Under the pieces are notes generated by a model, which did no database searches, had not been told where the DNA came from, and was given only the letters and a program-made list of their open reading frames with translations. A program made the position numbers and the translations under genes. 64,000 bases of DNA from Pseudonocardiaceae bacterium (GTDB lineage: Bacteria; Actinomycetota; Actinomycetes; Mycobacteriales; Pseudonocardiaceae). Positions 19,820-36,982 of this stretch are shown one piece after another; within the stretch, counting starts at the first letter, position 1; each line of letters opens with the position of its first letter. The DNA lies in NCBI GenBank assembly GCA_035714625.1, contig DASTLT010000169.1, positions 3,856-67,855 of the forward strand. Direction: 5' to 3'.

Positions 19820-22800
19820 GTGGCGAGTGATCACAAGCGCCCTCCGCTGTCTCCGGCGCGCCTGGGGCTGACCGATGAGGGTGCCGCGGACCGGCTGGCC
19901 CGGCTCGGCTGGTGGCAGGACGGGCAGGTCCGGGATGACGCGGTGGAGGCGGTGTGGGCGCTGGCCCGGGCACCCGACCCCAACCTGGCGTTACGCACCC
20001 TGGGCCGGCTGGCCGCCACAGCCGGTGCCGGGTGGGCCGAGCTGGATGCAGCATTGTGCCAGGATCCCGGGTTGCGGGGCCGGTTGCTCGCGGTGCTTGG
20101 CTCATCCACCGCGTTGGGTGACCACCTGGCCGCCGAGCCGCAGCGCTGGCGAGGGCTGGTCGGTGCCGAGGCGGCTCACCCCGGCTGGGCGGAGCGAGCC
20201 GTGGCGCGGCTGCTCAGCGCCGTCGGCGCCGATCCCGCCGCGCCGCCGCCGGGTGCCGAGGGGGGGACCCGGGCGGCGCTGACCGACACCGCGGCCCAGC
20301 GGGTGCTGCGGGCCACCTACCGCGACCTGATCACCGAGCTGGCGGCCGCCGATCTGGGGGCGGTGGTGGAACCGGAGTTGCCGATCGTCCCCTTCGAGCA
20401 GGTCGCCGCAGCGCTCGCCGAACTGGCCGCGGGGGCGTTGCGCGCCGCGCTGGCCGTCGCAGTGACCGAGGTGGCCGGACCGGAAGCGGTGCCACCCCGG
20501 CTTGCCGTGATCGGGATGGGCAAGTGCGGTGGGGGGGAGCTCAACTACGTCTCCGACGTCGATGTGATCTTCGTGGGTGGGTCCGAGGAGGAGCTGGCCG
20601 CGGCCACCAAGCTGGCGGCGGCGACAATGCGGGTGGCCGGTGCGGCGTGCTTCGAGGTCGACGCGGCGCTGCGCCCGGAGGGCAAGGCCGGTGCCCTGGT
20701 GCGCACCCTCGAAGGGCATCTTTCCTACTACCGCCGCTGGGCCAGGACCTGGGAGTTCCAGGCCCTGCTCAAGGCCCGCCCGGTGGCCGGCGACGCCGGG
20801 CTCGGGGCCCGTTACCTGCAGGCCGTCGCGCCGCTGGTGTGGAGCGCGGCGGACCGGGAGAACTTCGTGCCGGAGGTTCAGGAGATGCGCCGGCGGGTCG
20901 TCGACCACGTCCCAGCCAACCTGGTGGACCGGGAGCTCAAACTGGGTCACGGCAGCCTGCGGGACGTGGAGTTCGCCGTGCAGTTGCTGCAACTGGTGCA
21001 TGGCCGCGCGGACTCCTCGCTGCGGGTCGCCTCCACCGTGGCGGCGCTGGCCGCGCTGGGTGCCGGCGGGTACGTCGGCCGTGACGACGCCGCCAACCTG
21101 GCCGCCTCCTACCGCTTCCTGCGCCTGCTGGAGCACCGCTTGCAACTGCAGAAACTGCGCCGCACCCACCTGCTTCCCGCCGAGAATGACACCGCGGGGC
21201 AGCGCTGGCTGGCCCGCGCCGCAGGGATACGCCCGGATGGGCGCCATGACGTGGTCGGGGTGCTGCGGGCCGAGTACACTCGCCACGCGCACCGGGCCCG
21301 CCGGTTGCATCAAAAGCTGTTCTACCGGCCGCTGCTGGAGGCGGTGGCCCGGGTCCCCACCGAGGTGTACCGGCTTTCGGAGTCCGCAGCGCGGGCTCGG
21401 CTGGTCGCTTTGGGCTATGCCTCCCCACAGGGCGCGCTGGGGCACCTTCGGGCGCTGACCCACGGGGTGTCCCGGCGGGCGGCGATCCAGTCCGCGCTGT
21501 TGCCGGTGCTGCTGGAGTTCCTCGCCGACACCCCCGACCCGGATGGCGGGCTGGCCGCCTACCGCCGGGTGTCCGAGGCCCTTAAGGACACCCCGGGGTA
21601 CCTGCGGCTGCTGCGTGACGAGGGGGCGGTGGCACAGCGGCTGATGACCCTGCTCGGCACCGCCCGCATGGTTCCCGACCTGCTGGTCCGGGCGCCGGAG
21701 GTGCTGCAGTTGCTCGCCGACCGGCACGAGTTGGCCGGCCGCGACCCCGCTGACGTGGCGGCATCACTGCGGGCCACCGTGGCCCGGCACCGGGAGCCGG
21801 TGGCGGCGGTGGCCGCGGCCCGCGCGCTGCGCCGCCACGAGCTGCTCCGGATCGCCTGCGCCGACCTGCTCGGCCTGCTGGATGTGGACGCGGTGTGCGC
21901 CGCGCTGTCATCGGTGTGGACCGCCGTGCTCGCCGCCGGGCTGGACGCCGCGCTGCGCACCGAGGTTGAGCGCAGGCAGGCCGCGCCAGCCCGGATCGCG
22001 GTGATCGGGGTGGGCCGGCTCGGGGGTGCCGAGCTGGGCTACGGCTCGGACGCCGACGTGCTGTTCGTCTGCGAGCCCACCGCCGGAGCCGACGAGACCG
22101 AGGCGGTGCGGTTCGCGTCCGCAGTCGCCGAGTCGGTGCGGGCGCTGCTCGGCTCACCCAGCCAGGACCCGCCCCTGGTGATCGACACCGGGTTGCGTCC
22201 GGAGGGCCGTTCGGGTCCGCTGGTGCGTACCCTGGCGTCCTACCAGGCCTACTACAGTCAGTGGGCGCAGACCTGGGAGGCGCAAGCGCTGCTGCGGGCC
22301 AGGCCGGGGGCCGGTGACGCGGCGTTGGGGGAGCGGTTCGCCGCGGCCATCGACCCGGTGCGCTACCCCGCGGGCGGGCTGAGCCCGCAGCGGGCCACCG
22401 AGATCCGGCGGATGAAGGCCCGGGTCGACTCCGAGCGACTGCCCCGGGGTGCCGACCCGGCCACCCACACCAAGCTTGGCCGCGGCGGGCTGGCCGATGT
22501 GGAGTGGACCATCCAGCTCCTACAGTTGCAGCACGCGCACCAGGTGCCCGCCCTGCGCACCCCGTCCACCAGCGCCGCCCTGTCGGCCGCCGCCGAGGCC
22601 GGCCTGCTCAAGCGATCCGAAGCCGAAGCCCTGCTGGCCGCATGGAGGTTCGTTACCAGGACGCGCAACGCGCTCACCCTGGTCCGCGGCAAGCAGGTTG
22701 ACCAGTTGCCCAGCTCCGGGCGGGAGCTGGCGGCGGTGGCCCGCGTGCTGGGCCACTCCGCGGACGACGACCCCGGCAAGGTCGTCGACGAGTACCGCCG

Positions 22801-22849
22801 CATCACCCGCCGCGCCCGCGCCGTCGTGGAGCGCTCCTTCGGCACCTGA
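19820..22849 (+). CDS. glnE: bifunctional glutamine synthetase adenylyltransferase / adenylyl-removing enzyme
   Basis: 1009 aa. Two nucleotidyltransferase halves, each with G(M/R)(G/L)(K/G)xGGxELxYxSDxDVxFV (IGMGKCGGGELNYVSDVDVIFV and IGVGRLGGAELGYGSDADVLFV). Conserved synteny with glnA and glnA2. Confidence 0.9.
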   Translation: MASDHKRPPLSPARLGLTDEGAADRLARLGWWQDGQVRDDAVEAVWALARAPDPNLALRTLGRLAATAGAGWAELDAALCQDPGLRGRLLAVLGSSTALGDHLAAEPQRWRGLVGAEAAHPGWAERAVARLLSAVGADPAAPPPGAEGGTRAALTDTAAQRVLRATYRDLITELAAADLGAVVEPELPIVPFEQVAAALAELAAGALRAALAVAVTEVAGPEAVPPRLAVIGMGKCGGGELNYVSDVDVIFVGGSEEELAAATKLAAATMRVAGAACFEVDAALRPEGKAGALVRTLEGHLSYYRRWARTWEFQALLKARPVAGDAGLGARYLQAVAPLVWSAADRENFVPEVQEMRRRVVDHVPANLVDRELKLGHGSLRDVEFAVQLLQLVHGRADSSLRVASTVAALAALGAGGYVGRDDAANLAASYRFLRLLEHRLQLQKLRRTHLLPAENDTAGQRWLARAAGIRPDGRHDVVGVLRAEYTRHAHRARRLHQKLFYRPLLEAVARVPTEVYRLSESAARARLVALGYASPQGALGHLRALTHGVSRRAAIQSALLPVLLEFLADTPDPDGGLAAYRRVSEALKDTPGYLRLLRDEGAVAQRLMTLLGTARMVPDLLVRAPEVLQLLADRHELAGRDPADVAASLRATVARHREPVAAVAAARALRRHELLRIACADLLGLLDVDAVCAALSSVWTAVLAAGLDAALRTEVERRQAAPARIAVIGVGRLGGAELGYGSDADVLFVCEPTAGADETEAVRFASAVAESVRALLGSPSQDPPLVIDTGLRPEGRSGPLVRTLASYQAYYSQWAQTWEAQALLRARPGAGDAALGERFAAAIDPVRYPAGGLSPQRATEIRRMKARVDSERLPRGADPATHTKLGRGGLADVEWTIQLLQLQHAHQVPALRTPSTSAALSAAAEAGLLKRSEAEALLAAWRFVTRTRNALTLVRGKQVDQLPSSGRELAAVARVLGHSADDDPGKVVDEYRRITRRARAVVERSFGT

Positions 22850-22859: not shown

Positions 22860-23603
22860 TCATACTACGAGTGCGTTAGCCAACCAGCCTCGACGAGCAC
22901 CGCATCCGCGGGGCGATTCCCGGTTCCGCGGCTGCCTGTCTCGGCACTGAGACAAACCCCCGAGCGCTATCCGGGCAGGCCGGCCCGGCGGGCCATGCCC
23001 CGCAATTCCTGATCCGCCGGGGAACCCCGCCGCGAGTGCCCCAGTAGCGCGGCGGGCAGGGCGGCACCCGGTTCGGGGGCCCGATGCCAGCGGGCTGTGG
23101 ACTGGCCCAGATCGGTGGGTGGCAGCGGTACCCAGCAGCTCGGCCCCCGGTAGCTGATCGCGGGGCCAGGCCGCCATCGCCGGCAGCAGCCCGGCGCCGG
23201 AGGCCACCAAGACCAGCCAGCGGTCCGCGCCCAGCGCCACGACCGGCCCGGCCACCGGGGCCGTGTCCAGCGCGAGCAGTACCGCCGCGGCCAGTGGGGT
23301 GGGTAGCTCCACGGCGTCTACGCCGTGCCCGCAGACCAGCAGGACGCCATAGCGGCGGTGGCTCCAGGTGGCATGTGCCTGCTCCCAGGTTGTGATCGGC
23401 TGATCTGGCCAGCGCTCGTCGAGCGGACCCAACCCGGTCGCGTCGCTGCTGCCGTGGCGGCCGCACCAGCGGCCTGCGGTGTCGGCGGGATAGGTCCCGG
23501 CCACGATCGGCCAACCCCGGGTGACTGCCCCGACCGCGGTCTCCCGCAGCAGCGCCTGCACATCCGGCAGACGCCCGGCGCGTGATGGTGATGGTGATGA
23601 CAT
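22860..23603 (-). CDS. bifunctional DNA primase/polymerase (Prim-Pol) N-terminal-domain-like protein
   Basis: 247-aa ORF. The N-terminal 150 aa (GWPIVAG...YGVLLVCGHGVDAVELP...GPVVALGADRWLVLV) resemble small actinomycete Prim-Pol-like proteins. The C-terminal ~90 aa are Arg/Gly/Pro-rich and may be degenerate. Confidence 0.4.
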   Translation of the reverse strand: MSSPSPSRAGRLPDVQALLRETAVGAVTRGWPIVAGTYPADTAGRWCGRHGSSDATGLGPLDERWPDQPITTWEQAHATWSHRRYGVLLVCGHGVDAVELPTPLAAAVLLALDTAPVAGPVVALGADRWLVLVASGAGLLPAMAAWPRDQLPGAELLGTAATHRSGPVHSPLASGPRTGCRPARRATGALAAGFPGGSGIAGHGPPGRPARIALGGLSQCRDRQPRNRESPRGCGARRGWLANALVV

Positions 23604-23889
23604 CGCTCACACTCCCCTCTGCGCGCGGCAGATAGCACTGCTGCCCACGCTTGACACCCGCCGCGCACCGGTGCGGACCGCGGCCTGGCCTGGAGTGGCC
23701 CAGGCGCCGGGCGGCCACGCACCCCGTTGCTAAACGGACCCACAGTGACGACTATCGCGACAGTCAAGACATCAAGACGCGATTGAGTCACAAGGGAGGC
23801 GCAGAGCATCACTCCCTCTGCCCCACGGCGGTGGAAGGTGTCGCAGACTGTCGTCATCGAGGCACGATCGGTCCTGGTGGGAGGTCACG

Positions 23890-25113
23890 GTGCAGGACGA
23901 GCTGAGCGCGCCCGCCGTGCCGGCGTCGGTGGGCCAGCGGGTGGCCCGGCAACGCCGGCTGTGCGGGCTGACTCAGGCCCAGCTCGCCGCCCGGGCCGCG
24001 GTGGAAGTGAGCCTGCTCGGGCAGGTCGAGCGGGGGCTCGCGCTGGCCTCCCCGGCGCTGGTCGCCGCCGTCGCTCGCGCGCTGGGGGTCGAGGTGGCCA
24101 GCGTGTACGGCCAGCCCTATCCGCCGCCGATCACCGACCCGGACGCCGATCACGCCGGGATCCCCGCGCTGCGCGCCGCGCTGGGCCACGAGCAGGACCC
24201 CGACCCCGACTGCCCGCCGAGCACCCCGACTGAGCTGCGGGCCCGCCTCGACGCCTGCGAGCAGCACCGGGCCGCTGGCTGCTACCGGCAGCTGACCATC
24301 GCGTTACCGGAGGTGCTGGCGCGCGCCTACGCGCTCGCCCACCAGGCCCGCGACGCCGGTGCGGCGAAGACGGCGTGGGCGTTGGTCACCGACGCCTGCC
24401 TGCTCGCCTTGGCCGCCGCCTACCGGTTCGGCTATCTCGACCTGGCCCTGCTGTGCGGGCAGCACGCCCGGCCCGCAGCCGGGCAGGCAGCAGATCCGCT
24501 GCGCGTCGCGCTCTGTGACTACCAGCGAGCCGGGCTGCGCCGCTACCGCGGCGACTACTATGGCGCCCTGCTGGCGCTGGAGCGGGCCCACCTGCGGCTA
24601 GCCGAGCAGACCAGTCCCGCTGCGGATGCGCTGCGGGTGGCGCTGCACCTGCGGGAAGCGATCATCCACGCCCGCCTCGGCACCCCCACTAGGGCCCACC
24701 AGCACCTCGACCGGGCCGCCGACCTGCTCGCCCGCGGGTTGCCGCCCAGCCCCCGCTACGGCATTGCCGCCACGGCGACCACCCTCGACATCCACCACGT
24801 GGCCGTCGCCGTCGAGCTGGACGACCCGGACACCGCGCTGGCCCGCGCCGAGCAGATCAAGATCCCGACCGGGGAGTCCGCCGCCGTGGTCGGCCGGTAC
24901 TGGATCGACCTCGCCCGCGCCCATACCCTGCGCGCCGACCCCACCCCGGCCCTGCACGCGCTGCACCAGGCCCGCCACACCGCCCCGCAACTGGCCCGCT
25001 ATCACTCCCAGGTGCACCAGATCGTGCACCTGCTCACCGAGACCGCCCGCCGCGACCCGGACACCCTGCCCGGATTCGCCCGCTGGGCCGGCCTGACCCC
25101 CGGCTCCCCCTGA
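23890..25113 (+). CDS. XRE-family transcriptional regulator (N-terminal HTH + C-terminal helical-repeat/TPR-like domain)
   Basis: 407 aa. HTH VGQRVARQRRLCGLTQAQLAARAAVEVSLLGQVERG. SD GGGAGG precedes GTG 23890. A paralogue lies immediately downstream. Confidence 0.7.
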   Translation: MQDELSAPAVPASVGQRVARQRRLCGLTQAQLAARAAVEVSLLGQVERGLALASPALVAAVARALGVEVASVYGQPYPPPITDPDADHAGIPALRAALGHEQDPDPDCPPSTPTELRARLDACEQHRAAGCYRQLTIALPEVLARAYALAHQARDAGAAKTAWALVTDACLLALAAAYRFGYLDLALLCGQHARPAAGQAADPLRVALCDYQRAGLRRYRGDYYGALLALERAHLRLAEQTSPAADALRVALHLREAIIHARLGTPTRAHQHLDRAADLLARGLPPSPRYGIAATATTLDIHHVAVAVELDDPDTALARAEQIKIPTGESAAVVGRYWIDLARAHTLRADPTPALHALHQARHTAPQLARYHSQVHQIVHLLTETARRDPDTLPGFARWAGLTPGSP

Positions 25114-25134
25114 CCCCACGTTGGAGGCGCACCC

Positions 25135-26429
25135 ATGTGCGGCAACGCCAACAGCAACGCCAACGGCAACGGCAACGGCACTGAGACCGCCCCACCCGGA
25201 TCGGTCGGCCACCGGCTGGCCCGCGCCCGCAAGCTGGCCGGGCTCACCCAACACCAGCTCGCCGCCCGCGCCCACGTCAGCAAGAGCCTGATCTCCCAAG
25301 TCGAACGCGGTGTGGTGCCCGCCTCCCCGGCATTCACCGCCGCCGTGGCCCGCGGGCTGGGCCTGGAGCCTCAGGCCCTGACCGGCGAACCCTACGGCCC
25401 GCCGATCACTGACCCAAGGCGGAGCATGCCGGGATCCCCGCCCTGCGCGCTGCCCTGGACAACGACGAAGACCCCGATCTCGAGGGCTTCCCGCTGACCC
25501 CCGCCGACCTGCGCACCCGCCTCGATACCTGCCAGGCCCAGCGGCAGAAGGCCCAGTACTCCCTGGTCATCGCTGCACTGCCGGACCTGCTCAATCACGT
25601 CTACGCCCTGGTGGCCGGCGCCCGACCCGGCAACGCAGCCGACACCGCATGGGCCCTGCTCGACGACGCCTACGAACTCGCCCAGGTCGTCTGTCTGCGG
25701 TTCGGCTACTACGACCTGGGAGCACTGGCCGCCCGGTGCGGGCGCGACGCCGCCACCAAGGCCGGAGACCCCGTGCGCGCCGCCGTGGCGGCCTTCCGCT
25801 ACACCGGCGCGCGGCTGCGCCGCGGTGATCACGCGGGTGTACTCCGAGCCCTCGACCGTGCTCACGGTCTGATCGAGAGCGAGCACTCACCCACCGCCGA
25901 CGCCGTACGAACCGTCGTGCACCTGCGCCAGGCGCGGGTCCAGGCCCGGCTGGGGGCACGGGATCGGGCCGATGAGCACGTCGGCGAGGCACGTCGGCTG
26001 CTGGTCAGCGGCATACCCACCCGCCCCTACTACAGCGTGAACGCGACACCGGCCAACATCGAAATGCACCACGTCGAAGTGCCCGTCGAACTCGCCGACG
26101 GCACCACCGCCGTCAGCCGAGCCGAACAGGTCCAGTTCCTCCCCGATACTCATGCCACCATCGCCGGCCACCACTGGGTCAACGTCGCCCGCGCCTGGAC
26201 CCTGCACGGTGATCGCGCCAAGGCCCTCGCCGCGCTGCAGGAGGCCCGCCGGATCGCCCCCCAGCAGACTCGCTACCACCCCAGCGTGCACGAAACCGTG
26301 CACCTGCTCGCCGAGCACGGCCGCCGCGCCACCGACTCCCTCGCTGGCTTCGCCCGCTGGGCCGGCATCACCCTTGAGGCCCGGTGTCCGCACCGTGATG
26401 GAGTCCCAACCGAGCGCGGTGCCTTGTGA
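25135..26429 (+). pseudogene. XRE-family regulator paralogue interrupted by a -1 frameshift
   Basis: Frame 1 (25135-~25418) gives HTH ...GLTQHQLAARAHVSKSLISQVERG...EPYGPPITDP. The alignment to the upstream paralogue (ITDPDADHAGIPALRAAL) continues only in the next frame as EHAGIPALRAALDNDEDPD... from about 25421 to the stop at 26429. Confidence 0.6.
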
Positions 26430-26519
26430 AACTCTTGCGAGTCGCACCGGTGACCGATTGACCAGATTTAGCACTCACTCAGCTACTGTCAGTCTGTATT
26501 GATGCCTGGGGGCCGTGTG

Positions 26520-26732
26520 ACTGCTTCCACCGATCGAGGCGCATTCTGGGCCGGGACGCAGCCGGGCTCGCTGAGCACGTGGCCGAACAGCTGCGGATCT
26601 GGCACCGGGAACACCACGACGGCGCCGCCCGCAGTATCCGCGTCTACCCGGCCGGGCACGCCCGACGACCAGCTCCCCGGAGGGCGTGTCATCGAGAAGA
26701 CGCATAGCCGCCTCGCGATCTCCTGGCCGATG
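26520..26732 (+). pseudogene. relic 3-prime end (~70 codons) of a second FxLD-system methyltransferase, frameshifted and without its stop
   Basis: Two frames together read RRILGRDAAGLAEHVAEQLRIWHREHHDGAARSIRVYPAG / TPDDQLPGGRVIEKTHSRLAISWP. This aligns with the C-terminus of the intact enzyme (FRIYGHGPGGERLAEEYVDLIQAWDRDHRGGSGARITVYPADTPNSQLPEGRVIDKKHTRVVISWP*). Confidence 0.55.
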
Positions 26733-26813
26733 TCAAGTTCTACAAAGACCATCCCACCCCTACTCGGTGGATGCCTTTGCATTCCGAACCCAACCCACTG
26801 GAGAGTAACCCCG

Positions 26814-28040
26814 TTGAGCACACTCCGAGACAGGAACGTCAGCGCTGCTGACGGCACCACCCGTGAGAAGATGGTCCGCGAACTGCGTGAGCTGGGGGCG
26901 ATCCACAGCGACTCGGTCGCGGCTGCCGTCAGCACGGTGCCGCGGCACCTGTTCGCTCCTGGTGAGCCGCTGGACACGGTGTACGCCGCCACCCGTTCCA
27001 TCGTCACCAAGAGGAACGAGCACGGCGCGGCGATCAGTTCGCTGTCCGAGTCGCACATTCAGGCGACCATGCTGGAACAGGCCCAGATCGAACCTGGCAT
27101 GCGGGTTCTGGAGATCGGAACGGGCGGCTACAACGCGGCGTTGATCGCCGAACTTGTCGGCGAGTCAGGCCAGGTGACCTCCGTCGACATCGACCCCGAC
27201 ATTGTCGATCGAGCCCGGAGCTGCCTGGCTGCGGCGGGTTACGACCAGGTCAACGTGGTGTTGGCCGATGCCGAGCACGGCGTGCCGGACCGCGCTCCGT
27301 TCGACCGGGTCATCGTGACCGCCGCGGCGTGGGACATCCCACCGGCGTGGACTGACCAGTTGGCCGGGGACGGGCGAATCGTCGTCCCGCTCCGGATGCG
27401 CGGATTGACCCGCTCGGTGAGCTTGGAGCGCGGAGAACACCACTTGGTGAGCCGAGACTACAAGCTCTGCGGGTTCGTGCCGATGCAAGGCGCCAGCGCC
27501 CACAGCGAGCGGGTAATCCCCCTCGATGAGGGGAAGGTCACGCTGCAGATCGACGGAGACCAGCCGGTTGATTCGGACCGTTTGCGGGATGCATTGTTCA
27601 GTCCACGAGTCGAGCGTCGGGTGTGCACATTTAGAGCCGGCGAACCTCTCCACGACCTGGACATGTGGGTTATCACCGTTGTGGACGATTTCGGCCTGCT
27701 GAAAGCGACAGAGGAAGCGATCGACAGCGAACTGGTTAGCAAAACCACACGCCTAGGTGGCAGAGCAGTCATAGCAGGTGGGAGTTTCGCGTACCGGGCA
27801 TTCCCGCAACCAATAGACGGCAGTCGTACGAAGTTCCAATTCCGCATCTATGGGCATGGTCCGGGCGGTGAACGCCTCGCCGAGGAATACGTGGACCTGA
27901 TCCAGGCGTGGGATCGGGACCACCGAGGTGGTTCGGGTGCACGGATAACGGTGTACCCGGCGGATACGCCCAATAGTCAGCTTCCCGAAGGTCGGGTCAT
28001 CGACAAGAAGCACACGCGAGTCGTCATCTCCTGGCCCTGA
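26814..28040 (+). CDS. protein-L-isoaspartate O-methyltransferase-like enzyme of the FxLD lanthipeptide system (LanS-type)
   Basis: PIMT fold: VSTVPRHLFAP, SAM motif VLEIGTGGYNAALIAELVG, VTSVDID. It also has the ~190-aa C-terminal extension typical of 'methyltransferase, FxLD system'. Proposed TTG start at 26814, 8 nt after GGAGAG (alternative ATG 26871). The 513-aa ORF-track version includes the upstream relic. Confidence 0.8.
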   Translation: MSTLRDRNVSAADGTTREKMVRELRELGAIHSDSVAAAVSTVPRHLFAPGEPLDTVYAATRSIVTKRNEHGAAISSLSESHIQATMLEQAQIEPGMRVLEIGTGGYNAALIAELVGESGQVTSVDIDPDIVDRARSCLAAAGYDQVNVVLADAEHGVPDRAPFDRVIVTAAAWDIPPAWTDQLAGDGRIVVPLRMRGLTRSVSLERGEHHLVSRDYKLCGFVPMQGASAHSERVIPLDEGKVTLQIDGDQPVDSDRLRDALFSPRVERRVCTFRAGEPLHDLDMWVITVVDDFGLLKATEEAIDSELVSKTTRLGGRAVIAGGSFAYRAFPQPIDGSRTKFQFRIYGHGPGGERLAEEYVDLIQAWDRDHRGGSGARITVYPADTPNSQLPEGRVIDKKHTRVVISWP

Positions 28041-28104
28041 CAGCAGGATATCCAGGACCGAAAGCCCATAAGGCTCTCGGGTAACGCACGGGAAGGAGGA
28101 GTAC

Positions 28105-28275
28105 GTGACAGTTCAGGTGGATCAGATGGCGGTCGGAGTGGGCGATGCACAGTTCGATCTCGATGTTAGTATCGTCGAGTCCGGCCCTGTCATCAACGAT
28201 CTGATGCGTTTGACCGACGATGGCTGCGGAACCACGTGTGAGAGCGCCTGTACCGCCCAAAGCGGTTGTGGTTAG
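28105..28275 (+). CDS. FxLD-family class I lanthipeptide precursor (LanA), 56 aa
   Basis: Not in the ORF track (<60 aa). SD GGAAGGAGGA (28091-28100) then GTG 28105. Translation VTVQVDQMAVGVGDAQFDLDVSIVESGPVINDLMRLTDDGCGTTCESACTAQSGCG*. It has an FDLD leader box and a C-terminal 20 aa with 4 Cys and 6 Ser/Thr. It sits between the methyltransferase and LanB. Confidence 0.8.
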   Translation: MTVQVDQMAVGVGDAQFDLDVSIVESGPVINDLMRLTDDGCGTTCESACTAQSGCG

Positions 28276-28293
28276 CCCGGTCTGCTTTGACGC

Positions 28294-31200
28294 ATGTCCG
28301 TGGTCGTGGTGGCGGGGGCGTCACGTCTTCGCCACCACGCTGGTCCGAGTCCTGTGGGGGCGCGGTTGTACCGGTTTGTGGATGCGGCTGTGGTGCGGGC
28401 AGCGGTCTGCCTGCCTGGCGCGGTTCCGCCCTGGCCGGACTTGACCGGTGACACCGAAGAGCATGTGACGCAGTGGTGTCGCTGGCTGCAGCAGGTCTGG
28501 GCGACGGCGGGTTTCGCGGCGAGCGTTGAGGTCGCCAGCCCGACCCTGGCTCGCCGCATCTGGGAGATGTGCGACGGATATCGTCTGCCGACACGCCAAG
28601 TTCGGCGCGTGACGATTTCGGTCATCCGGTATCTGCTGCGAATGACAAGCCGTGCGACACCGTTCGGCTTGTTCTCCGGTGTGGCGCCGGTCGGGCTCGG
28701 GTCCGCACCCAAGATTTGGTTCGGTGAGAACCATCGCGCTGTCGCGCGGATCGATGCTGGATGGCTCGATGGGGTGATTACGCGCCTGGAGAACAGCCGC
28801 GAGCTGTGGCATCGGTTGCTGGTGGTGCGGAACAACCTCGCGTTCGTCCGCGACGGACGGCTGGTGGTGGGGTGCCAGCAGCAGGCTGGCGCAGCACGCG
28901 GGGCCGAGTCAGCGGAGGTATCGGTTCGCTACACCGAGGCCGTTCGGATTGTCCTGCAGGCCGCTGCGGCCCCTATTCGTCTGGGTGAGTTGGCCGGCAA
29001 GCTGGCGGCGGAGTTCCCGGACAGACCGGACGTCGTGATCAACGGGATGCTGGCCGGGTTGGTGGCGCAGCGCATGTTGGTCACCAACCTCCGCCCGCCG
29101 ATGACGGCCATCGATCCGCTGGCCCATGTCGTCAATGCGCTGGCCGCGGTGGGGGCCGACGCGGTGCCCGAGGTGGTCGGCCTGCTGAACGAGCTGCACG
29201 ACATCCACGCCGATCTGGCACGGCATAACGCCGCCTCACCCACCCAGGCCCGTAACCTCCGAGCGCGCGCCTTTCGCGGAATGGCGACGATCGTCACCGC
29301 TGAACGACCGGTCGCGGTGGACCTCCGGCTCGATGGCGGGTTGGTCCTGCCGCCCGCGGTGGTGCGGGAGGCTGAGAACACCGCAGCGGCGCTGGTCAGG
29401 CTGACCCCGCACCCGTTCGGCCCCCCGCGCTGGCAGGAGTACCATCGGCGGTTCTGCGAACGATATGGACTCGGTGCCCTGGTCGGCGTCCACGATTTGC
29501 TCGACGTCGACAGTGGACTCGGGTTTCCCGCCGGCTACCGCGATTCACGCCTGAACCACCCAGCCACCCCCGGTCTGACCGAGCGTGATGTGGCCCTGTT
29601 GGCGTTGGCGCAAAACGCCGCACTGCGGCAGCAAACGGATGTCGTGCTCGATGACACTATGATCGCCAACCTCTCGGCTGGGGCCGTTGACAAGATCCAG
29701 CCGCAGCCGCACACCGAGCTCCGGTGCCGCATCTACGCGCCCAGCACTGAGGCGCTCAGTCGGGGTGAATTCCAGCTCGCGATCACCGGGGTATCCCGCG
29801 CGGCCGGCACCACAACCGGGCGGTTTCTCGACCTTCTCGACGCTGCCGACCGAGACCGCATGTTCCACGCCTACGCCGCGCTTCCCACCGTCAGCGAGGA
29901 TGCCGTGCGGGTACAGGTATCCGGGCCTGCCCTGTACCCGCGTGCCGACAACATCGCCCGCTGCCCCGCCGTGCTGCCACACCTGCTGTCGCTGGCCGAA
30001 CACCATTCCGGCAACACCGGCATCATCCCATTGGACGACCTCGCGGTGAGCGCCGACAGCGAACGCCTCTACTTGATTTCGCTTTCCCGCCAGCGACCAG
30101 TGGAACCGACTGTGCTCAGCGCGGTGGAACTCACCAACCACGCCCATCCGCTCCTGCGGTTCCTGGTCGAGATCGCCACCGCTCGTACCGCGGCGTGCGT
30201 CCCCTTCACCTGGGGCGAGGCTGGGCGATTGCCATTCCTGCCGAGAATTCGCTACCGGCGTTCGATCTTGTGCCCGGCCATGTGGACGCTGACCGCGACC
30301 GACCTTCCGGGAGCAGCCGCGACGTGGCAGGAGTGGGTGGACAGCCTGGTCGCATGGCGAGACCAGTGCCGTGTTCCGGCCTCGGTCTACCTCGGCGATG
30401 GCGATCGGCGGATTCGCCTGGACTTGGCCGAACCCGCCCACCTCACCGTGCTGCGTACTGACCTGGAGCGCAACGGTCACGCCACGGTGCGCGAGGCGCC
30501 GGATGCCAGCGCGTTGGGATGGATCGACGGGCGTGCCCACGACATCGTTATTCCGCTCGCCGCCGCCCAGCCTGCTGCTCCGGGCCCGGCGCGATTGGAC
30601 CGCGTGCTCAGCCGCGAGCACGGGCATCTCCCTGGCAGCAGCGAGTGGCTCTACGTCAAGCTGTACGGGCACCCGGACCGGCAGACCGCCATCCTCACCA
30701 CGCACCTGTCCACCCTGCTGTCCACATGGGACAATGAACCTGACTGGTGGTTCCTGCGCTACCACGACCCCGAGAAGCATCTCCGCCTGCGCATCCGTCT
30801 CCGAGATGCTGGCGACTTCGGACCGGTCGCCGCGCGGATCGCCGAGTGGACAGCCGGGCTACGACGGCTCGGCCTCGTGGGCCAGGTGCAGTGGGACACC
30901 TACTACCCGGAGACCGGACGCTTCGGCAGGGACGCGGCGATGGCCGCGGCAGAGTCGGTGTTCGCCGCCGATTCGGCCGCGGTGATCGCCCAACTGCAAG
31001 CGACCAATCACCGTGGCCCGCACCCGCACGCCGTCATCGCCGCGAGCATGGTCGACCTGGCCATCACCGTCACCGGCAGTATCAGCAATGGGATGCGCTG
31101 GCTAATCAGCCACCTCCGCACGCCCTCCATCCCGGCCCCGCCCCGCGAGGTCCATCACCAAGCAATCCGCCTGGCCAATCCGCACAACGACTGGGCCGCA

Positions 31201-31446
31201 CTCCGGGCGATACCCGGCGGCGACGACATCGCGGCGTCGTGGACGCTACGGCGCACTGCGCTTGCCCGGTATCGCGACGCGCTCGCCACCGAGGACCAGT
31301 TCCCCCCGGACGCAGTGCTAGCGGATCTGCTGCACCTGCATCACGCCCGCATGTCAGGAATCTCCACGGACACCGAGTGGGCCTGCCGCCGCCTGGCCCG
31401 GGCCGCCGCCCTGAGCTGGACCGCGCGAACCCAAGGAGCCCCGTGA
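28294..31446 (+). CDS. class I lanthipeptide dehydratase LanB (full length: glutamylation + elimination domains)
   Basis: 1050 aa. N-terminal YRFVDAAVVRAAV...ASPTLARRI, typical of Lant_dehydr_N. C-terminal SpaB_C-type blocks WLYVKLYGHPDRQ, WWFLRYHDPEKHLRLRIRL, YYPETGRFG, LLHLHHARMSG. Confidence 0.9.
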   Translation: MSVVVVAGASRLRHHAGPSPVGARLYRFVDAAVVRAAVCLPGAVPPWPDLTGDTEEHVTQWCRWLQQVWATAGFAASVEVASPTLARRIWEMCDGYRLPTRQVRRVTISVIRYLLRMTSRATPFGLFSGVAPVGLGSAPKIWFGENHRAVARIDAGWLDGVITRLENSRELWHRLLVVRNNLAFVRDGRLVVGCQQQAGAARGAESAEVSVRYTEAVRIVLQAAAAPIRLGELAGKLAAEFPDRPDVVINGMLAGLVAQRMLVTNLRPPMTAIDPLAHVVNALAAVGADAVPEVVGLLNELHDIHADLARHNAASPTQARNLRARAFRGMATIVTAERPVAVDLRLDGGLVLPPAVVREAENTAAALVRLTPHPFGPPRWQEYHRRFCERYGLGALVGVHDLLDVDSGLGFPAGYRDSRLNHPATPGLTERDVALLALAQNAALRQQTDVVLDDTMIANLSAGAVDKIQPQPHTELRCRIYAPSTEALSRGEFQLAITGVSRAAGTTTGRFLDLLDAADRDRMFHAYAALPTVSEDAVRVQVSGPALYPRADNIARCPAVLPHLLSLAEHHSGNTGIIPLDDLAVSADSERLYLISLSRQRPVEPTVLSAVELTNHAHPLLRFLVEIATARTAACVPFTWGEAGRLPFLPRIRYRRSILCPAMWTLTATDLPGAAATWQEWVDSLVAWRDQCRVPASVYLGDGDRRIRLDLAEPAHLTVLRTDLERNGHATVREAPDASALGWIDGRAHDIVIPLAAAQPAAPGPARLDRVLSREHGHLPGSSEWLYVKLYGHPDRQTAILTTHLSTLLSTWDNEPDWWFLRYHDPEKHLRLRIRLRDAGDFGPVAARIAEWTAGLRRLGLVGQVQWDTYYPETGRFGRDAAMAAAESVFAADSAAVIAQLQATNHRGPHPHAVIAASMVDLAITVTGSISNGMRWLISHLRTPSIPAPPREVHHQAIRLANPHNDWAALRAIPGGDDIAASWTLRRTALARYRDALATEDQFPPDAVLADLLHLHHARMSGISTDTEWACRRLARAAALSWTARTQGAP

Positions 31447-32690
31447 GTCGACTCATTCCGGACGCGTTGGCCATGGCCACCGCGATCGCCTCCCGCTTGG
31501 CCGACCCGCACGCGGTCGGCACGCCCGGTGCTGTTGCAGGGGGCCGAGGTCGCCGTCGTCCCCAATCGCTGGCCGGCGGCGCAGCGGGTATCGCCCTGCT
31601 GCACATCGAACGCGCCTACACCGGCCACGGCGACTGGAACACGGCCCACGCCTGGCTGACTGCCGCCGTCCGCGACGAGTTGAGCGTCGGCCCCAACGCT
31701 GGCCTGTACTTCGGCGCGCCGACCCTGGCGTTCGTCACCAACGCCGCCGCCAACCAGCCCGGCAAGTACGAGCGAGCGCTCGCCCAACTCGACGCGAGCA
31801 CCGTTATCGTGACCCGACGCCGTCTCGACCGAGCCCATGCCCGCATCGACCGTGGCGAGCGGCCCCTGATGGCCGAGTTCGACGTCATCCGAGGCCTGAC
31901 CGGCTTCGGCGTCTACCACCTGCGGCGCCACCCGGACGATGACATCACGCGAGCCGTACTGTCCTACCTCGTCCGGCTGACCGAACCGCTTCCGGGCAGC
32001 ACCGACGGTCTACCGGGCTGGTGGACCGACGTTTCTCTGAACGGCGAGCCTTCACCGGACCTTCCCGGCGGTCACGGCAACTTCGGCATGTCGCACGGCA
32101 TCGCCGCCCCGCTGGCGTTGCTGTCGCTCGCCATGCTGCGGGGCGTCGTCGTGGAGGGACACACCGACGCCATCGCCCGGATCTGCGCCTGGCTGGACGC
32201 ATGGCAACAGGAGCACCCATCCGGTCCATGGTGGCCTGGGTACATCACCCTCGAACATGTCCACAAAGGACGTGTCGAGAACTCCAGCCAGCAATGCCCG
32301 TCGTGGTGCTACGGCACGCCCGGTGTTGCCCGCGCCCAACAACTCGCCGGTCTGGCTAGCGGCGATTTCGCACGGCAACGCACCGCCGAGGCGGCCATGC
32401 TCGGCTGCCTTCGCGATCCTGACCAACTCGACCGCCTCCCCGAAACGGGCCTGTGCCACGGCATGGCCGGCCTGTTCCAGACCGCTTGGCGGATGGCTGC
32501 CGACGCCAGCACACCCGACATCGCGGCTGAGTTGCCGGGGCTGGCGACAAGGCTGCTCGCCAGGTTCCGTGCGGCACCCGAGGAGGTGGAGTTCCTCGAC
32601 GGGCACGCGGGCGTGGCTCTCGCCCTGCACACCGCTGGAACCGACACCGCCCCGCTCACGCACTGGGACGCGTGCTTGCTTCTCGCCTAA
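31443..32690 (+). CDS. lanthionine synthetase C-family cyclase LanC
   Basis: GTG 31443 overlaps the LanB stop (GTGA). 415 aa. Motifs GAAGIALL, GHGNFGMSHGIAAPLALL, CPSWCYGTPGVA, GLCHGMAGL (Zn ligands Cys/Cys/His). The 647-aa ORF-track version is an out-of-frame upstream extension. Confidence 0.9.
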   Translation: MSRLIPDALAMATAIASRLADPHAVGTPGAVAGGRGRRRPQSLAGGAAGIALLHIERAYTGHGDWNTAHAWLTAAVRDELSVGPNAGLYFGAPTLAFVTNAAANQPGKYERALAQLDASTVIVTRRRLDRAHARIDRGERPLMAEFDVIRGLTGFGVYHLRRHPDDDITRAVLSYLVRLTEPLPGSTDGLPGWWTDVSLNGEPSPDLPGGHGNFGMSHGIAAPLALLSLAMLRGVVVEGHTDAIARICAWLDAWQQEHPSGPWWPGYITLEHVHKGRVENSSQQCPSWCYGTPGVARAQQLAGLASGDFARQRTAEAAMLGCLRDPDQLDRLPETGLCHGMAGLFQTAWRMAADASTPDIAAELPGLATRLLARFRAAPEEVEFLDGHAGVALALHTAGTDTAPLTHWDACLLLA

Positions 32691-32711
32691 CCACGAAGGA
32701 ACTCCACCAGC

Positions 32712-33602
32712 ATGAACGATGACCTCGATCCGCACCCCGCGCAGCATTCCTGGCGTCAGGTGTTCATCCACTTCCACGACTACGCCGTTGCCGAACACAT
32801 CAGCAGCGTCCACATCGGTCTGGAACTGGCCAGCGCCGAGACGGCCAGGCAGATCTCGTCGTGGTTCTTCACGCGCAAGAACCCGTGCTGGCGACTGCGT
32901 TTCCGGCCAGCGCGTGACAGCGCCGAACAGAATGGGGCGTTCGTCCATCAGCGACTCGACAGGTTGCAAGCCGCCGGCCACATTGCGAACTGGGTCGAGA
33001 CCCTCTACGAACCAGAGACCTACGCCTTCGGCGGCGCGGAAGGTATGACCCTGGCTCACCGCCTCTTCCACGCCGACAGCCGACACATCCTCGCCTACCT
33101 CGCCAACCAAGGCGCGAACACGTCCGGCGGCCGCGGCGACCAACGGCGCGAGCTGTCCGTGCTGCTGTGCAGCATCCTGATGCGCAGCGCGAGACAAGAC
33201 TGGTACGAACAGGCAGACATCTGGGCACGCGTCGCCGAGTTCCGGCCCCATCCACCCGGCACGCCCTCCGGCTCGCTGAGCCGCCTGGAATCCGGCGTCC
33301 GGCGGCTGATGACCGTGGACACGAGCCCCGCCAGCCCTCTCCTGCAGGAACGCGGATCGAGGGCCTTTCTCTCCGAGTGGGCCGCGGCCTTCGCCGACGC
33401 AGGCCAGACCCTGGGCGAGCTTGCCCGCAACGGCACGTTGCGCCGGGGTCTGCGCGCCGTCCTCGCGCACCACATCATCTTCCACTGGAACCGGCTCGGT
33501 CTGCCATCCACTACGCAAAGCCTGCTCGCTTACACCGCCAAGGCGGTCGTCCTGGGCAGTGATGAGAGTGGCGCGGTCCCCGGCACCACCGAGGTCTGCT
33601 GA
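32712..33602 (+). CDS. stand-alone LanB C-terminal-like (SpaB_C / 'thiopeptide-type bacteriocin biosynthesis') domain protein
   Basis: 296 aa. WRQVFIHFHD..., SSWFFTRKNPCWRLRFRP, LYEPETYAFGG and LAHHIIFHWNRLGL parallel the elimination-domain blocks of the adjacent LanB. Confidence 0.75.
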   Translation: MNDDLDPHPAQHSWRQVFIHFHDYAVAEHISSVHIGLELASAETARQISSWFFTRKNPCWRLRFRPARDSAEQNGAFVHQRLDRLQAAGHIANWVETLYEPETYAFGGAEGMTLAHRLFHADSRHILAYLANQGANTSGGRGDQRRELSVLLCSILMRSARQDWYEQADIWARVAEFRPHPPGTPSGSLSRLESGVRRLMTVDTSPASPLLQERGSRAFLSEWAAAFADAGQTLGELARNGTLRRGLRAVLAHHIIFHWNRLGLPSTTQSLLAYTAKAVVLGSDESGAVPGTTEVC

Positions 33603-33705
33603 AGTATCAGGAATGACCACCACTGTCAGCGACGCTTTCGTGGTCTTCGCCGACGAGCTGGGCCTCACGCTGACCGGCGAGCTGTGAGCGGTGAGGAGTG
33701 ACGGG

Positions 33706-34812: not shown

Positions 34813-35006
34813 CGTTCCCTGAACGAACAGCCATCCTCGCCGGTCGGGCTCACGTAGGGCGTGCACTATGGGGCTCCGGGCCGCCGTGTCGCATCCCGGC
34901 ACGGCTCGTAAGGCGTGGGCGCGGTGTCGACGAAGGCTTTGGACGGATCGAACGGATCGAGCAGCTCCCGAGGACCGGGCGAAAGCATTCTTTAGCGAAC
35001 GGCCGG

Positions 35007-36799: not shown

Positions 36800-36982
36800 G
36801 AATCCCGGGTCGGCGCCGACCGATGCCAAGTGATTGTGGTGATCTGTCTGGGACGGGAGACCACCATGATCCGCGATGGGGGCAGATGCGATGGACGATA
36901 CCAGCCGCGATAACGTCACGTCCCAAGACGGGGCCGGGATCTGTCCGATCCCGGTGCCCACAAACGGGAGGAAGGCAGCCGG

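What the first reader, a model, noticed from the sequence alone, without database searches (positions are those of the whole stretch)
28105..28275. Unlisted 56-codon FxLD-type lanthipeptide precursor gene between the methyltransferase and LanB
Seen in sequence: a strong SD (GGAAGGAGGA, 28091-28100) precedes GTG 28105. The frame reads VTVQVDQMAVGVGDAQFDLDVSIVESGPVINDLMRLTDDGCGTTCESACTAQSGCG and stops at TAG 28273-28275. It is below the 60-aa cut-off of the ORF track, so it would be missed. Established knowledge: FDLD is the class I leader box (FNLD in nisin; the FxLD family in actinomycetes). The last 20 residues carry 4 Cys and 6 Ser/Thr, enough for up to four (methyl)lanthionine rings. Inference: the core starts near TDDGCG. 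The Asp-Asp-Gly just before the first Cys is a highly succinimide-prone context, making it a plausible target for the adjacent PIMT-like methyltransferase. I cannot tell whether this exact core matches a characterised compound.
Basis: partly seen in the sequence, partly recalled or inferred. Interest (0 to 1): 0.85.

Follow-up and report, generated by a model that had tools for sequence, protein, structure and literature searches.

The report
Lanthivirin-type FxLD lanthipeptide precursor gene
The small gene is real and encodes the precursor peptide of a very common actinomycete class I lanthipeptide cluster (the olv/coi "lanthiphage/lanthivirin" family, reported to defend against phages), so it is a correct but ordinary find that public annotation already names.

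Summary
The 56-codon ORF at 28105-28275 (+) is exactly as described and is a genuine gene. It scores 63.7 bits against NCBIfam TIGR04363 "FxLD family lanthipeptide" (cut-off 30). It has 46 database relatives, and substitutions against close relatives are mostly synonymous and at third codon positions. JGI and NCBI records already name the identical protein "FxLD family lanthipeptide".

It lies in an intact six-gene cassette: PIMT-like methyltransferase (LanSA), lanA, lanB, lanC, a stand-alone second glutamyl lyase, and a LanH/CoiH-type protein. This order is conserved in most of 77 related actinomycete loci.

The peptide carries the family motif TxDxCxxxCxxxC and the Thr-Asp-Asp-Gly-Cys A-ring. 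It is 48% identical to the characterised CoiA1 of Streptomyces coelicolor.

The extra lyase has the syn-eliminating signature (Lys/Ala/Ile where LanB has Tyr/Arg/His; 54/54 orthologs). The last gene keeps the four residues essential in CoiH.

The predicted product is polycyclic, with isoAsp or aspartimide at D39, a sulfoxide on the A-ring and probably one unusual ring stereocentre. The reported family function is anti-phage.

I also found a conserved lanA-lanB stem-loop and a LanB start that is probably mis-called.

The parts
28091..28100 (+). Shine-Dalgarno-like GGAAGGAGGA, 4 nt upstream of the lanA start
   Evidence: Read directly.
28105..28275 (+). lanA: 56-codon FxLD-family class I lanthipeptide precursor (GTG start, TAG stop)
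   Evidence: Translation. TIGR04363 63.7 bits against cut-off 30. 46 homologs. Purifying selection. 48% identical to CoiA1.
28153..28164 (+). FDLD leader box (F17-D20)
   Evidence: The motif is conserved in the alignment: F/W-D/E-L-D.
28159..28188 (+). Nearly invariant LDVSIVESGP segment (L19-P28), either leader recognition element or part of the product
   Evidence: Invariant or >=90% conserved columns L19 D20 S22 I23 V24 E25 S26 G27 P28. Its role is inferred.
28213..28227 (+). A-ring T37-D38-D39-G40-C41: predicted MeLan ring, D39 the predicted methylation/isoAsp site, thioether the predicted sulfoxidation site
   Evidence: Sequence. T37, C41 and G42 are invariant and D38, D39 >=90% conserved. 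Modification sites by homology to OlvA/CoiA1.
28213..28272 (+). Ring-forming region TDDGCGTTCESACTAQSGCG with the TxDxCxxxCxxxC motif plus a fourth Cys (C55)
   Evidence: Motif from Shomar et al.. The four-Cys form is present in 86 of 88 related precursors.
28305..28339 (+). 16-bp GC-rich stem-loop between lanA and lanB (no U-tract): proposed attenuator or mRNA 3'-stabiliser
   Evidence: Fold -50.6 kcal/mol for 28270-28370, z = -2.47. A comparable hairpin in 68 of 70 related loci. Median -35 against -20.6 kcal/mol for same-length LanB coding controls, p about 1e-25. Function is inferred.
26814..28040 (+). LanSA: PIMT-like O-methyltransferase of the FxLD system (408 aa)
   Evidence: TIGR04364 562.5 bits against cut-off 320, and PF01135. 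Gene call of 408 aa.
28366..31446 (+). LanB: full-length class I dehydratase (glutamylation domain plus anti-type lyase domain). Start most likely TTG 28366, not ATG 28294
   Evidence: PF04738 732 bits and PF14028 163 bits. Best solved relative MibB 5EHK, E 3e-96. Lyase motif Y/R/H. Conserved start before YRFVDAAVV.
31443..32690 (+). LanC cyclase (415 aa), overlapping the lanB stop by 4 nt
   Evidence: PF05147 128.6 bits. SHG, WCYG and CHG motifs visible in the alignment to a solved LanC-like protein; NisC also hit.
32712..33602 (+). Stand-alone second glutamyl lyase (LphD / syn-GL type, 296 aa)
   Evidence: PF14028 / TIGR03891. K56, A105 and I256 where LanB has Tyr, Arg and His; 54/54 orthologs. 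Criteria from PMC9486935.
33706..34812 (+). LanH / CoiH / LvnF-type protein (368 aa), predicted MeLan sulfoxide-forming enzyme
   Evidence: No Pfam, NCBIfam or PADLOC hit. 738 unnamed homologs. Invariant D60, N98, R101, L333 match CoiH essential D59, N97, R100, L332. Always follows the GL gene.

Best explanation
The ORF is the structural gene (lanA) of an intact class I lanthipeptide cassette of the olv/coi 'lanthiphage/lanthivirin' family. It belongs to the architectural variant in which the methyltransferase and the second glutamyl lyase are separate genes.

Proposed pathway:
1. [Inferred] lanA is translated from GTG 28105. The conserved stem-loop at 28305-28339 attenuates read-through or stabilises the short transcript, so that precursor exceeds enzymes.
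2. [Family knowledge] LanB recognises the FDLD leader and glutamylates Ser/Thr with Glu-tRNA(Glu). Its own Tyr/Arg/His lyase domain eliminates glutamate in anti fashion.
3. [Signature shown here, chemistry by homology to CoiSA/SptBb] The stand-alone Lys/Ala/Ile lyase eliminates at one C-terminal site in syn fashion. If that site is a Thr, this gives a d-allo-l-MeLan.
4. [Rings A and B by alignment to CoiA1; the other two inferred] LanC closes T37->C41 (A-ring) and T44->C49. It probably closes two more rings that use C45 and C55 with S47 and S53 (or T50).
5. [Homology] LanSA methylates D39 of the cyclised peptide. The ester collapses onto the G40 amide to give an aspartimide, which stays or opens to isoAsp.
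6. [Homology] LanH oxidises the A-ring thioether to a sulfoxide.

No protease, transporter or immunity gene is present. The product most likely acts inside the producer, and anti-phage defence is the function reported for this family.
For: - Identity of the peptide: TIGR04363 63.7 bits against cut-off 30; homolog alignment; purifying selection; 48% gapless identity to CoiA1 from the FDLD box to the third Cys (CoiA1 sequence); motif TxDxCxxxCxxxC.
- Cassette: MT, LanB, LanC, GL. Full-length colinear orthologs of all six genes in the same order in most of 77 loci from Pseudonocardiaceae, Thermobifida, Frankia, Microbispora, Amycolatopsis, Streptomyces and other genera.
- Syn-GL signature: 54/54 stand-alone GLs have Lys, Ala/Val and no His at the base position, where all 54 LanB lyase domains have Tyr, Arg and His, using the criteria.
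- LanH: invariant D60/N98/R101/L333 against CoiH D59/N97/R100/L332. [quoted passage not shown]
- LanC catalytic motifs are present.
- MT chemistry and order of action.
- Anti-phage activity of five clusters of the family.
- No transporter or protease in the flanks, as reported for coi and related clusters.
- Hairpin conservation.
Against: - Nothing here shows expression. No sigma-70-like promoter was found in 26000-35500, which is a weak negative for an actinomycete.
- The hairpin has no U-tract, so termination is not demonstrated.
- The C-terminal tail (TAQSGCG, with a fourth Cys) differs from both characterised peptides. The number and topology of the C-terminal rings and the syn-GL target residue are therefore guesses. 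If the target is S53 there is no E/Z isomer.
- No PADLOC defence gene lies next to the cluster.
- LanC was not placed in the published 'defensive clade' tree.
- I did not have the CoiH sequence, so LanH membership rests on matching essential residues and synteny.
- The mature natural products of this family have not been structurally resolved, even in S. coelicolor.
Confidence: 0.88

Rival explanations
1. The ORF is a chance open frame in GC-rich DNA, and the MT-LanB spacer is non-coding.
For: ORFs of this size are abundant on all six frames of this 70.6% GC window. The ORF's own GC3 (0.63) is lower than that of its neighbours (0.75-0.83).
Against: A family HMM hit at twice the cut-off. 46 homologs with an invariant Cys/Thr skeleton. 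Excess of synonymous and third-position changes. The same gene at the same position in 77 loci.
Confidence: 0.01
2. It is an olv-type precursor. Only LanB, LanC and the methyltransferase act on it, and the downstream lyase-domain and 368-aa genes are inactive or serve another substrate. The product would then have ordinary stereochemistry, isoAsp and no sulfoxide.
For: The best-characterised relative, OlvA, needs only B, C and SA. The residue aligned near CoiA1's syn-GL target is not clearly a Thr here (S53 or T50). A Ser would give no E/Z isomer.
Against: GL and LanH are intact, full-length and translationally close-packed after lanC. Their diagnostic or essential residues are invariant. olv-type clusters lack the syn-GL. 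The peptide also lacks the Cys that forms OlvA's extra N-terminal Lan: by the gapless alignment to CoiA1, R35 occupies the position where CoiA1 has Asn40 in place of OlvA's Cys.
Confidence: 0.06
3. The product is a conventional secreted lanthipeptide (antibiotic or morphogen) and not an intracellular anti-phage agent. Protease and exporter are encoded elsewhere.
For: Most characterised class I lanthipeptides are secreted antimicrobials. Remote proteases are known for RiPPs. No known defence system was detected beside this cluster. The anti-phage evidence comes from Streptomyces clusters, not from this core variant or genus.
Against: No transporter, immunity or protease gene in or near the cassette. 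The core has no nisin- or mersacidin-type lipid II motif (against the motifs quoted). All five clusters of the family that were tested gave phage protection. All MIBiG-characterised lanthipeptide BGCs fall outside this clade.
Confidence: 0.15
4. The cassette is a silent or decaying horizontally acquired island and makes no product in this organism.
For: The GC content of the cassette (57-70%) is below the window mean. It is surrounded by gene fragments: a Prim-Pol fragment, WD40 and ARMT1 pieces, an MT C-terminal remnant at 26571-26729, and a split HTH/TPR paralog. The native product was also hard to detect in S. coelicolor hosts.
Against: All six genes are full-length without frameshifts relative to orthologs, with catalytic residues kept. 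lanA itself is under purifying selection.
Confidence: 0.1

Closest known systems
CoiA1 and the coi cluster of Streptomyces coelicolor A3(2) (lanthiphage_Sco / lanthivirin)
   Same: - FDLD leader, then the SxxE segment, then L-T-D-D-G-C-G-(S/T)-T-C-x-S-x-C, aligned without gaps at 48% identity.
- Full-length LanB plus LanC plus PIMT-type MT plus a second syn-type lyase plus LanH.
- No protease or transporter.
   Different: - In coi the lyase is fused to the N-terminus of the MT (CoiSA). Here the two are separate genes on either side of lanA-B-C.
- coi has three precursors. This window has one.
- The CoiA1 tail is ATNVA, with 3 Cys and 3 rings. Here the tail is TAQSGCG with a fourth Cys.
OlvA and the olv cluster of Streptomyces olivaceus NRRL B-3009 (Acedo et al. 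2019, as summarised in PMC13001092)
   Same: Class I FxLD precursor with a MeLan A-ring containing the conserved Asp followed by Gly. A stand-alone LanSA methyltransferase acts after cyclisation to give aspartimide and then isoAsp.
   Different: - olv has no second lyase and belongs to a clade whose BGCs encode no CoiH homolog.
- OlvA has an extra N-terminal Lan whose Cys is absent here.
- Different ring stereochemistry is expected.
Stand-alone syn-glutamyl lyases such as SptBb of the SapT pathway
   Same: Lys in place of the anti-GL Tyr, a hydrophobic residue in place of NisB Arg826, loss of the His base, and retained Arg-x-Arg and Glu.
   Different: SptBb is the only lyase of a split LanB. 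Here the lyase is additional to a complete LanB, which is the third category listed in PMC9486935.
Nisin-type class I lantibiotic precursors (FNLD leader)
   Same: F-x-L-D leader box and LanB/LanC maturation (for the motif).
   Different: No lipid II-binding motif. No LanT, LanP or LanFEG genes. Extra MT, GL and LanH tailoring. A different reported biological role.

Membership tests
FxLD family lanthipeptide (NCBIfam TIGR04363) | Score above the curated cut-off of the family HMM | tested here: met
   63.7 bits against 30; residues 16-50 cover profile positions 2-36 of 37.
FxLD family lanthipeptide (NCBIfam TIGR04363) | Adjacent FxLD-system methyltransferase (TIGR04364) and LanB/LanC | tested here: met
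   TIGR04364 562.5 bits against 320. PF04738, PF14028 and PF05147 in the next two genes.
Lanthiphage / lanthivirin class I BGC family (Shomar et al.) | LphB (LanB-like) and LphC (LanC-like) core enzymes | tested here: met
Lanthiphage / lanthivirin class I BGC family (Shomar et al.) | Accessory LphE (PF01135), LphD (PF14028) and LphF (conserved hypothetical) | tested here: met
   PF01135 in 26814-28040 and PF14028 alone in 32712-33602. A family-less 368-aa protein with CoiH-essential residues. Definitions.
Lanthiphage / lanthivirin class I BGC family (Shomar et al.) | Core motif TxDxCxxxCxxxC (present in 57% of predicted core peptides) | tested here: met
   T37-D-D39-G-C41-GTT-C45-ESA-C49 (motif).
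Lanthiphage / lanthivirin class I BGC family (Shomar et al.) | LanC falls in the 'defensive clade' of the cyclase phylogeny; assignment to one of 10 clades, 7 types and 9 core variants | not testable with these tools
   The tree, figures and supplementary tables are not held. Close relatives (Thermobifida, Actinokineospora, Nocardiopsis) are listed as CoiA1 orthologs in PMC9486935 Table S8.
Lanthiphage / lanthivirin class I BGC family (Shomar et al.) | Enrichment next to known defence systems (a statistical property: 26.6% of clade members) | tested here: not met
   No PADLOC defence-system hit among 10 flanking or cluster proteins beyond generic HTH and methyltransferase similarities. This is not a requirement for membership.
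Lanthiphage / lanthivirin class I BGC family (Shomar et al.) | Confers phage resistance | not testable with these tools
   Experimental. Shown for five Streptomyces clusters only.
coi-like BGC (van der Donk lab definition) | Second, syn-type glutamyl lyase in addition to a full-length LanB | tested here: met
   K56/A105/I256 against Y/R/H; 54/54. The stand-alone form is explicitly included.
coi-like BGC (van der Donk lab definition) | Lyase fused to the methyltransferase (CoiSA architecture) | tested here: not met
   MT (408 aa) and GL (296 aa) are separate genes about 4.7 kb apart. This is the known stand-alone variant.
LanH / CoiH / LvnF sulfoxide-forming enzymes | Essential pocket residues Asp59, Asn97, Arg100, Leu332 (CoiH numbering) | tested here: met
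   D60, N98, R101 and L333 are invariant in 27 diverse homologs, with identical spacing and an offset of +1.
LanH / CoiH / LvnF sulfoxide-forming enzymes | [quoted passage not shown] | tested here: met
   T37-D-D-G-C41. Requirement described. Synteny.
olv-like BGC | No syn-GL and no LanH; precursor with an extra N-terminal Ser...Cys Lan ring | tested here: not met
   GL and LanH are present. R35 occupies the position of the OlvA Cys / CoiA1 Asn40.

The most novel reading that the evidence does not exclude
The conserved fourth Cys (C55), together with the conserved Ser/Thr at positions 47 and 53, gives a tetracyclic product. Its three C-terminal thioether rings would interlock (for example T44->C49, S47->C55, S53->C45) in a topology not seen in mCoiA1 (three rings) or mOlvA (the extra ring is N-terminal). 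The product would also combine isoAsp or aspartimide with an A-ring sulfoxide. This would be a structurally undescribed lanthivirin scaffold shared by most stand-alone-GL clusters (86 of 88 precursors examined).
Probability: 0.35. Interest if true: 0.4.

Novelty: new member of a known kind. Interest (0 to 1): 0.25.

Why it matters
The call is correct, and it identifies a complete, apparently functional lanthivirin-type cassette in an uncultured Pseudonocardiaceae genome.

The family is of current interest for three reasons: reported anti-phage activity, an unusual d-allo-l-MeLan stereocentre, and a possibly cofactor-independent sulfoxide-forming enzyme. No mature natural product of the family has been structurally resolved.

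This particular member adds little, however. More than 2000 such clusters are catalogued, and they are the most abundant class I lanthipeptide families in Actinobacteria. The gene is already named in public annotation.

Its modest value lies in two things. It is an example of the four-Cys core with separate MT and GL genes, whose ring topology is uncharacterised. And the family-wide lanA-lanB stem-loop and the corrected LanB start are useful for refactoring or expression work.

Tried and rejected
- PDB sequence searches with the peptide and with the stand-alone GL found nothing. OlvA (6PQF) is too short or too modified to be found this way.
- The first LanB C-terminal query was out of frame. 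NisB aligned only to residue 873, so I mapped the lyase residues through the Pfam-type motifs (RY...RLR, ExxR(Y/F)G, HxH..R). The NisB sequence context behind the numbering is from my own memory. The test itself compares LanB with GL inside this data set.
- Rfam found no family in 27900-28500.
- The promoter and terminator consensus scan gave no promoter and no canonical terminator at lanA.
- There are no tRNA genes in the window and no second lanA copy.
- PADLOC gave no neighbouring defence system.
- Acedo et al. 2019 (PMC6812601) is not held, and PMC12359204 does not mention OlvA. I therefore could not obtain the OlvA sequence or its exact ring map.
- The lanthiphage type, clade and core-variant numbers could not be assigned, because the figures and supplementary tables are not held.
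- I considered a conventional lipid II-binding lantibiotic and rejected it as the main reading (no motif, no transport or immunity genes).
- I considered chance as an explanation for the hairpin in GC-rich DNA and rejected it after the coding-segment control.
Full report
**Observation.** GGAAGGAGGA lies at 28091-28100 and GTG at 28105. The 56 codons read VTVQVDQMAVGVGDAQFDLDVSIVESGPVINDLMRLTDDGCGTTCESACTAQSGCG, and TAG is at 28273-28275. The last 20 residues hold four Cys and six Ser/Thr. In a window of 70.6% GC, open frames of this size are everywhere, so the frame by itself proves nothing.

Independent evidence decides the matter:
- The NCBIfam model TIGR04363 'FxLD family lanthipeptide' scores 63.7 bits against a curated cut-off of 30.
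- A search of 5.8 billion proteins returns 46 relatives. In the 29-sequence alignment that includes 27 of them, V24, T37, C41, G42, T44, C45, A48, C49 and C55 are invariant, and the segment LDVSIVESGP is nearly invariant.
- Against the four closest genomic relatives, nucleotide differences fall mainly at third codon positions (for L001: 19 against 4 and 3). Synonymous codon changes outnumber nonsynonymous ones. The amino-acid changes lie mostly in the N-terminal leader and the last residues of the tail.
- The start position is conserved and is an ATG in Thermobifida.

The gene is real. It is not unknown to public annotation. The identical protein is named 'FxLD family lantipeptide' by JGI and 'FxLD family lanthipeptide' by NCBI for a Pseudonocardiaceae MAG. 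It is also a called gene on a public contig colinear with the window. The window most probably derives from that MAG's 70,430-bp contig.

**Surroundings.** The peptide gene is the second gene of a compact, same-strand cassette:
- a PIMT-like methyltransferase, 26814-28040 (TIGR04364 'methyltransferase, FxLD system', 562 bits against 320);
- lanA;
- a full-length LanB (Lant_dehydr_N 732 bits plus Lant_dehydr_C);
- LanC, 31443-32690, overlapping the lanB stop by 4 nt;
- a stand-alone Lant_dehydr_C protein, 32712-33602;
- a 368-aa protein, 33706-34812, that matches no Pfam, NCBIfam or PADLOC model.

One scan of 185,579 species-representative genomes returned 77 loci encoding relatives of the peptide. 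tblastn with the six window proteins shows the same six genes, full-length and in the same order, in nearly every locus long enough to show them. These loci come from Pseudonocardiaceae, Thermobifida, Haloechinothrix, Frankia, Microbispora, Amycolatopsis, Saccharomonospora, Promicromonospora, Streptomyces, Nocardiopsis, Micromonospora and other genera. The cassette is therefore a conserved, widespread unit, and the copy in the window is intact.

- Walker et al. (PMC7268733) found that the four largest class I precursor families in Actinobacteria have a conserved core Asp and a PF01135 methyltransferase, often together with stand-alone LanB-elimination-domain proteins.
- Acedo et al., as summarised in PMC13001092, showed that OlvSA methylates that Asp only after OlvB and OlvC have acted. 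The ester becomes an aspartimide, which hydrolyses to 70-80% isoAsp. The residue lies in a solvent-exposed loop formed by the first MeLan ring.
- Sarksian and van der Donk (PMC9486935) compared olv with the coi cluster of S. coelicolor. There a second glutamyl lyase, fused to the methyltransferase, performs syn elimination and yields a d-allo-l-MeLan. They state that such syn-lyases also occur as additional stand-alone proteins beside a full-length LanB.
- Shomar et al. (bioRxiv 10.1101/2024.06.26.600839) defined more than 2000 such clusters as 'lanthiphages', later called 'lanthivirins'. The genes are LphB, LphC, LphD (PF14028), LphE (PF01135) and LphF (hypothetical), and the core motif is TxDxCxxxCxxxC. 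They showed phage protection for the native S. coelicolor cluster and for four heterologously expressed Streptomyces clusters.
- Chen et al. (bioRxiv 10.64898/2026.08.26.747419) showed that CoiH (LanH/LvnF) oxidises the A-ring methyllanthionine to a sulfoxide. [quoted passage not shown]

**Tests of membership done here.**
- *Core motif.* The window peptide contains T37-D-D39-G-C41-GTT-C45-ESA-C49. This is the TxDxCxxxCxxxC motif with a Thr-Asp-Asp-Gly-Cys A-ring.
- *Similarity to CoiA1.* The CoiA1 sequence comes from the SI of PMC9011353, with the leader confirmed. The window peptide aligns to it without gaps over 46 residues at 48% identity, from before the FDLD box to the third Cys.
- *Syn-lyase signature.* I aligned the stand-alone lyase with the lyase domain of the window's own LanB and with 53 orthologs of each. 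All 54 stand-alone proteins have Lys where all 54 LanB domains have Tyr, with the Lys five residues before the Arg-x-Arg pair, as for K46/R51/R53 of CoiSA. They have Ala or Val where LanB has the Arg equivalent to NisB R826, and Ile, Leu, Val or Thr where LanB has the catalytic His. The Arg-x-Arg pair and the Glu are kept in both. This is the published syn-GL signature.
- *LanH.* The 368-aa protein has 738 unnamed homologs. In an alignment of 27 diverse ones, D60, N98, R101 and L333 are invariant. These are the four CoiH-essential residues with identical spacing and an offset of one.
- *LanC.* It keeps the SHG, WCYG and CHG motifs.
- *Prior listing.* Several close relatives of the window peptide (Thermobifida halotolerans, Actinokineospora spheciospongiae, Nocardiopsis metallicus) already appear in the published list of CoiA1 orthologs.
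- *Exclusions.* The fused CoiSA architecture is not met, because MT and GL are separate genes. The olv definition is not met, because a syn-GL and a LanH are present and the OlvA-specific Cys is absent. The cluster belongs to the already described 'stand-alone GL' variant of coi-like clusters.

**Mechanism.** The steps are marked by the kind of support each has.
- *Shown in the sequence:* a strong SD and a conserved start; an FDLD leader; intact enzymes with diagnostic residues.
- *From homology to characterised orthologs:* LanB glutamylates Ser/Thr and eliminates in anti fashion. The stand-alone lyase eliminates in syn fashion at one C-terminal site. LanC forms the T37-C41 A-ring and the T44-C49 ring, which correspond to CoiA1 T42-C46 and T49-C54. 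The methyltransferase methylates the second Asp of the A-ring (D39, followed by G40) after cyclisation, giving aspartimide and then isoAsp. LanH oxidises the A-ring sulfur.
- *Inferred only:* the fate of C45 and C55. The tail after the third Cys (TAQSGCG) differs from CoiA1 (ATNVA). Among the 88 precursor ORFs recovered (87 from the related loci plus the window's own), 86 have a fourth Cys preceded by a Ser or Thr one or two residues earlier. Ser/Thr47 is also conserved. Four rings are therefore likely, possibly S47-C55 and S53-C45, but the topology has not been characterised. If the syn-GL target is S53 rather than a Thr, no E/Z isomer arises.

No protease, transporter or immunity gene is present, as reported for coi-type clusters. 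This fits an intracellular role. The reported family function is anti-phage, with altered phage transcription and escape mutations in a phage GNAT. I rate that function as likely for this member but untested.

**An added feature.** A 16-bp stem-loop (28305-28339) lies 30 nt after the lanA stop. Its sequence varies between genera, but a comparable hairpin lies between lanA and lanB in 68 of 70 related loci. It is far more stable than same-length LanB coding segments from the same loci: median -35 against -20.6 kcal/mol, Mann-Whitney p about 1e-25, with 0.6% of controls reaching the observed median. It has no U-tract and was not picked up by the terminator scan. My inference is that it acts as an attenuator or a 3'-end stabiliser that sets the precursor-to-enzyme ratio, as is usual for lanthipeptide operons.

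The hairpin also bears on the LanB start. In all relatives examined, a TTG, ATG or GTG codon precedes the conserved YRFVDAAVV, with an SD-like GGAG 6-10 nt upstream. LanB therefore most likely starts at TTG 28366, and the public call at ATG 28294 reads through the hairpin.

**Context.** The cassette lies between glnE (19820-22849) and glnA (37787-39229). It is accompanied by a Prim-Pol fragment, HTH-TPR regulator genes, WD40 and ARMT1 fragments and a methyltransferase. Its GC content is below the window mean: lanA 57%, MT 64%, LanB 68%, against 70.6%. None of the 77 related loci shares the glnE/glnA flanks. This suggests the cassette moves as a unit. No tRNA gene and no recognised defence system lies beside it.

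**Verdict.** The finding is a new member of a well-catalogued and very abundant family, and public annotation already names it, so the interest is low to moderate. The residual novelty is the uncharacterised ring topology of the four-Cys core that dominates the stand-alone-GL clusters.

Noticed in passing
window 26571-26729 (+): A 53-aa stretch, in frame with and just upstream of the methyltransferase gene, is 41.5% identical to the C-terminus (residues 363-408) of that same methyltransferase (tblastn E 3e-7). It looks like the remnant of a second MT copy, and it explains why the longest ORF starts at TTG 26499. Related MAG loci carry tandem MT-lanA pairs (L005, L006, L011, L012, L014, L020).
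   Followed up: partly
window 28294-28365 (+): The public gene call starts LanB at ATG 28294, inside or ahead of the conserved lanA-lanB hairpin. Relatives have a conserved TTG/ATG/GTG start before YRFVDAAVV, so LanB most likely starts at TTG 28366, 24 codons shorter.
   Followed up: yes
window 23890-25113, 25135-25497 and 25611-26429 (+): The 120-aa HTH gene and the 272-aa TPR/NsdA-like gene just upstream of the cassette are paralogs (61% and 47% identity) of the two halves of the fused 407-aa HTH-TPR ORF next to them. This is a duplicated regulator, one copy of which is split. Similar HTH-TPR genes flank the cassette in L004, L007 and L021.
   Followed up: partly
window ~22860-37700: The cassette and its neighbours lie between glnE and glnA. 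The neighbours are a Prim-Pol fragment at 22860-23603 (-), a WD40 fragment at 35007-35597, an ARMT1-like fragment at 36204-36782 and a methyltransferase at 36983-37714. From about 26000 to 40000 the GC content is lower (63-71% per kb) than the 72-76% of the region upstream. None of the 77 related loci shares these flanks. This suggests an acquired island.
   Followed up: partly
L012 6867-7133: In a Pseudonocardiaceae MAG, a second lanA copy carries an in-frame stop in the core where the other precursors have the second Cys (…TDDGCGQT*ESACNSC). It is a pseudogenised precursor beside an intact one.
   Followed up: no
L009 (2.1-kb contig) and L064 (40-kb contig): Two loci carrying this actinomycete-type cassette are labelled as non-actinobacterial MAGs: Pseudomonas sp. 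and Candidatus Baltobacteraceae. Shomar et al. found the family only in Actinobacteria. These are either binning contaminants or rare transfers. L064 also lacks the lanA-lanB hairpin, with an 8-nt spacer.
   Followed up: no
window 28105-28275: lanA has markedly lower GC (57%) and GC3 (0.63) than every neighbouring gene (GC3 0.75-0.93).
   Followed up: no
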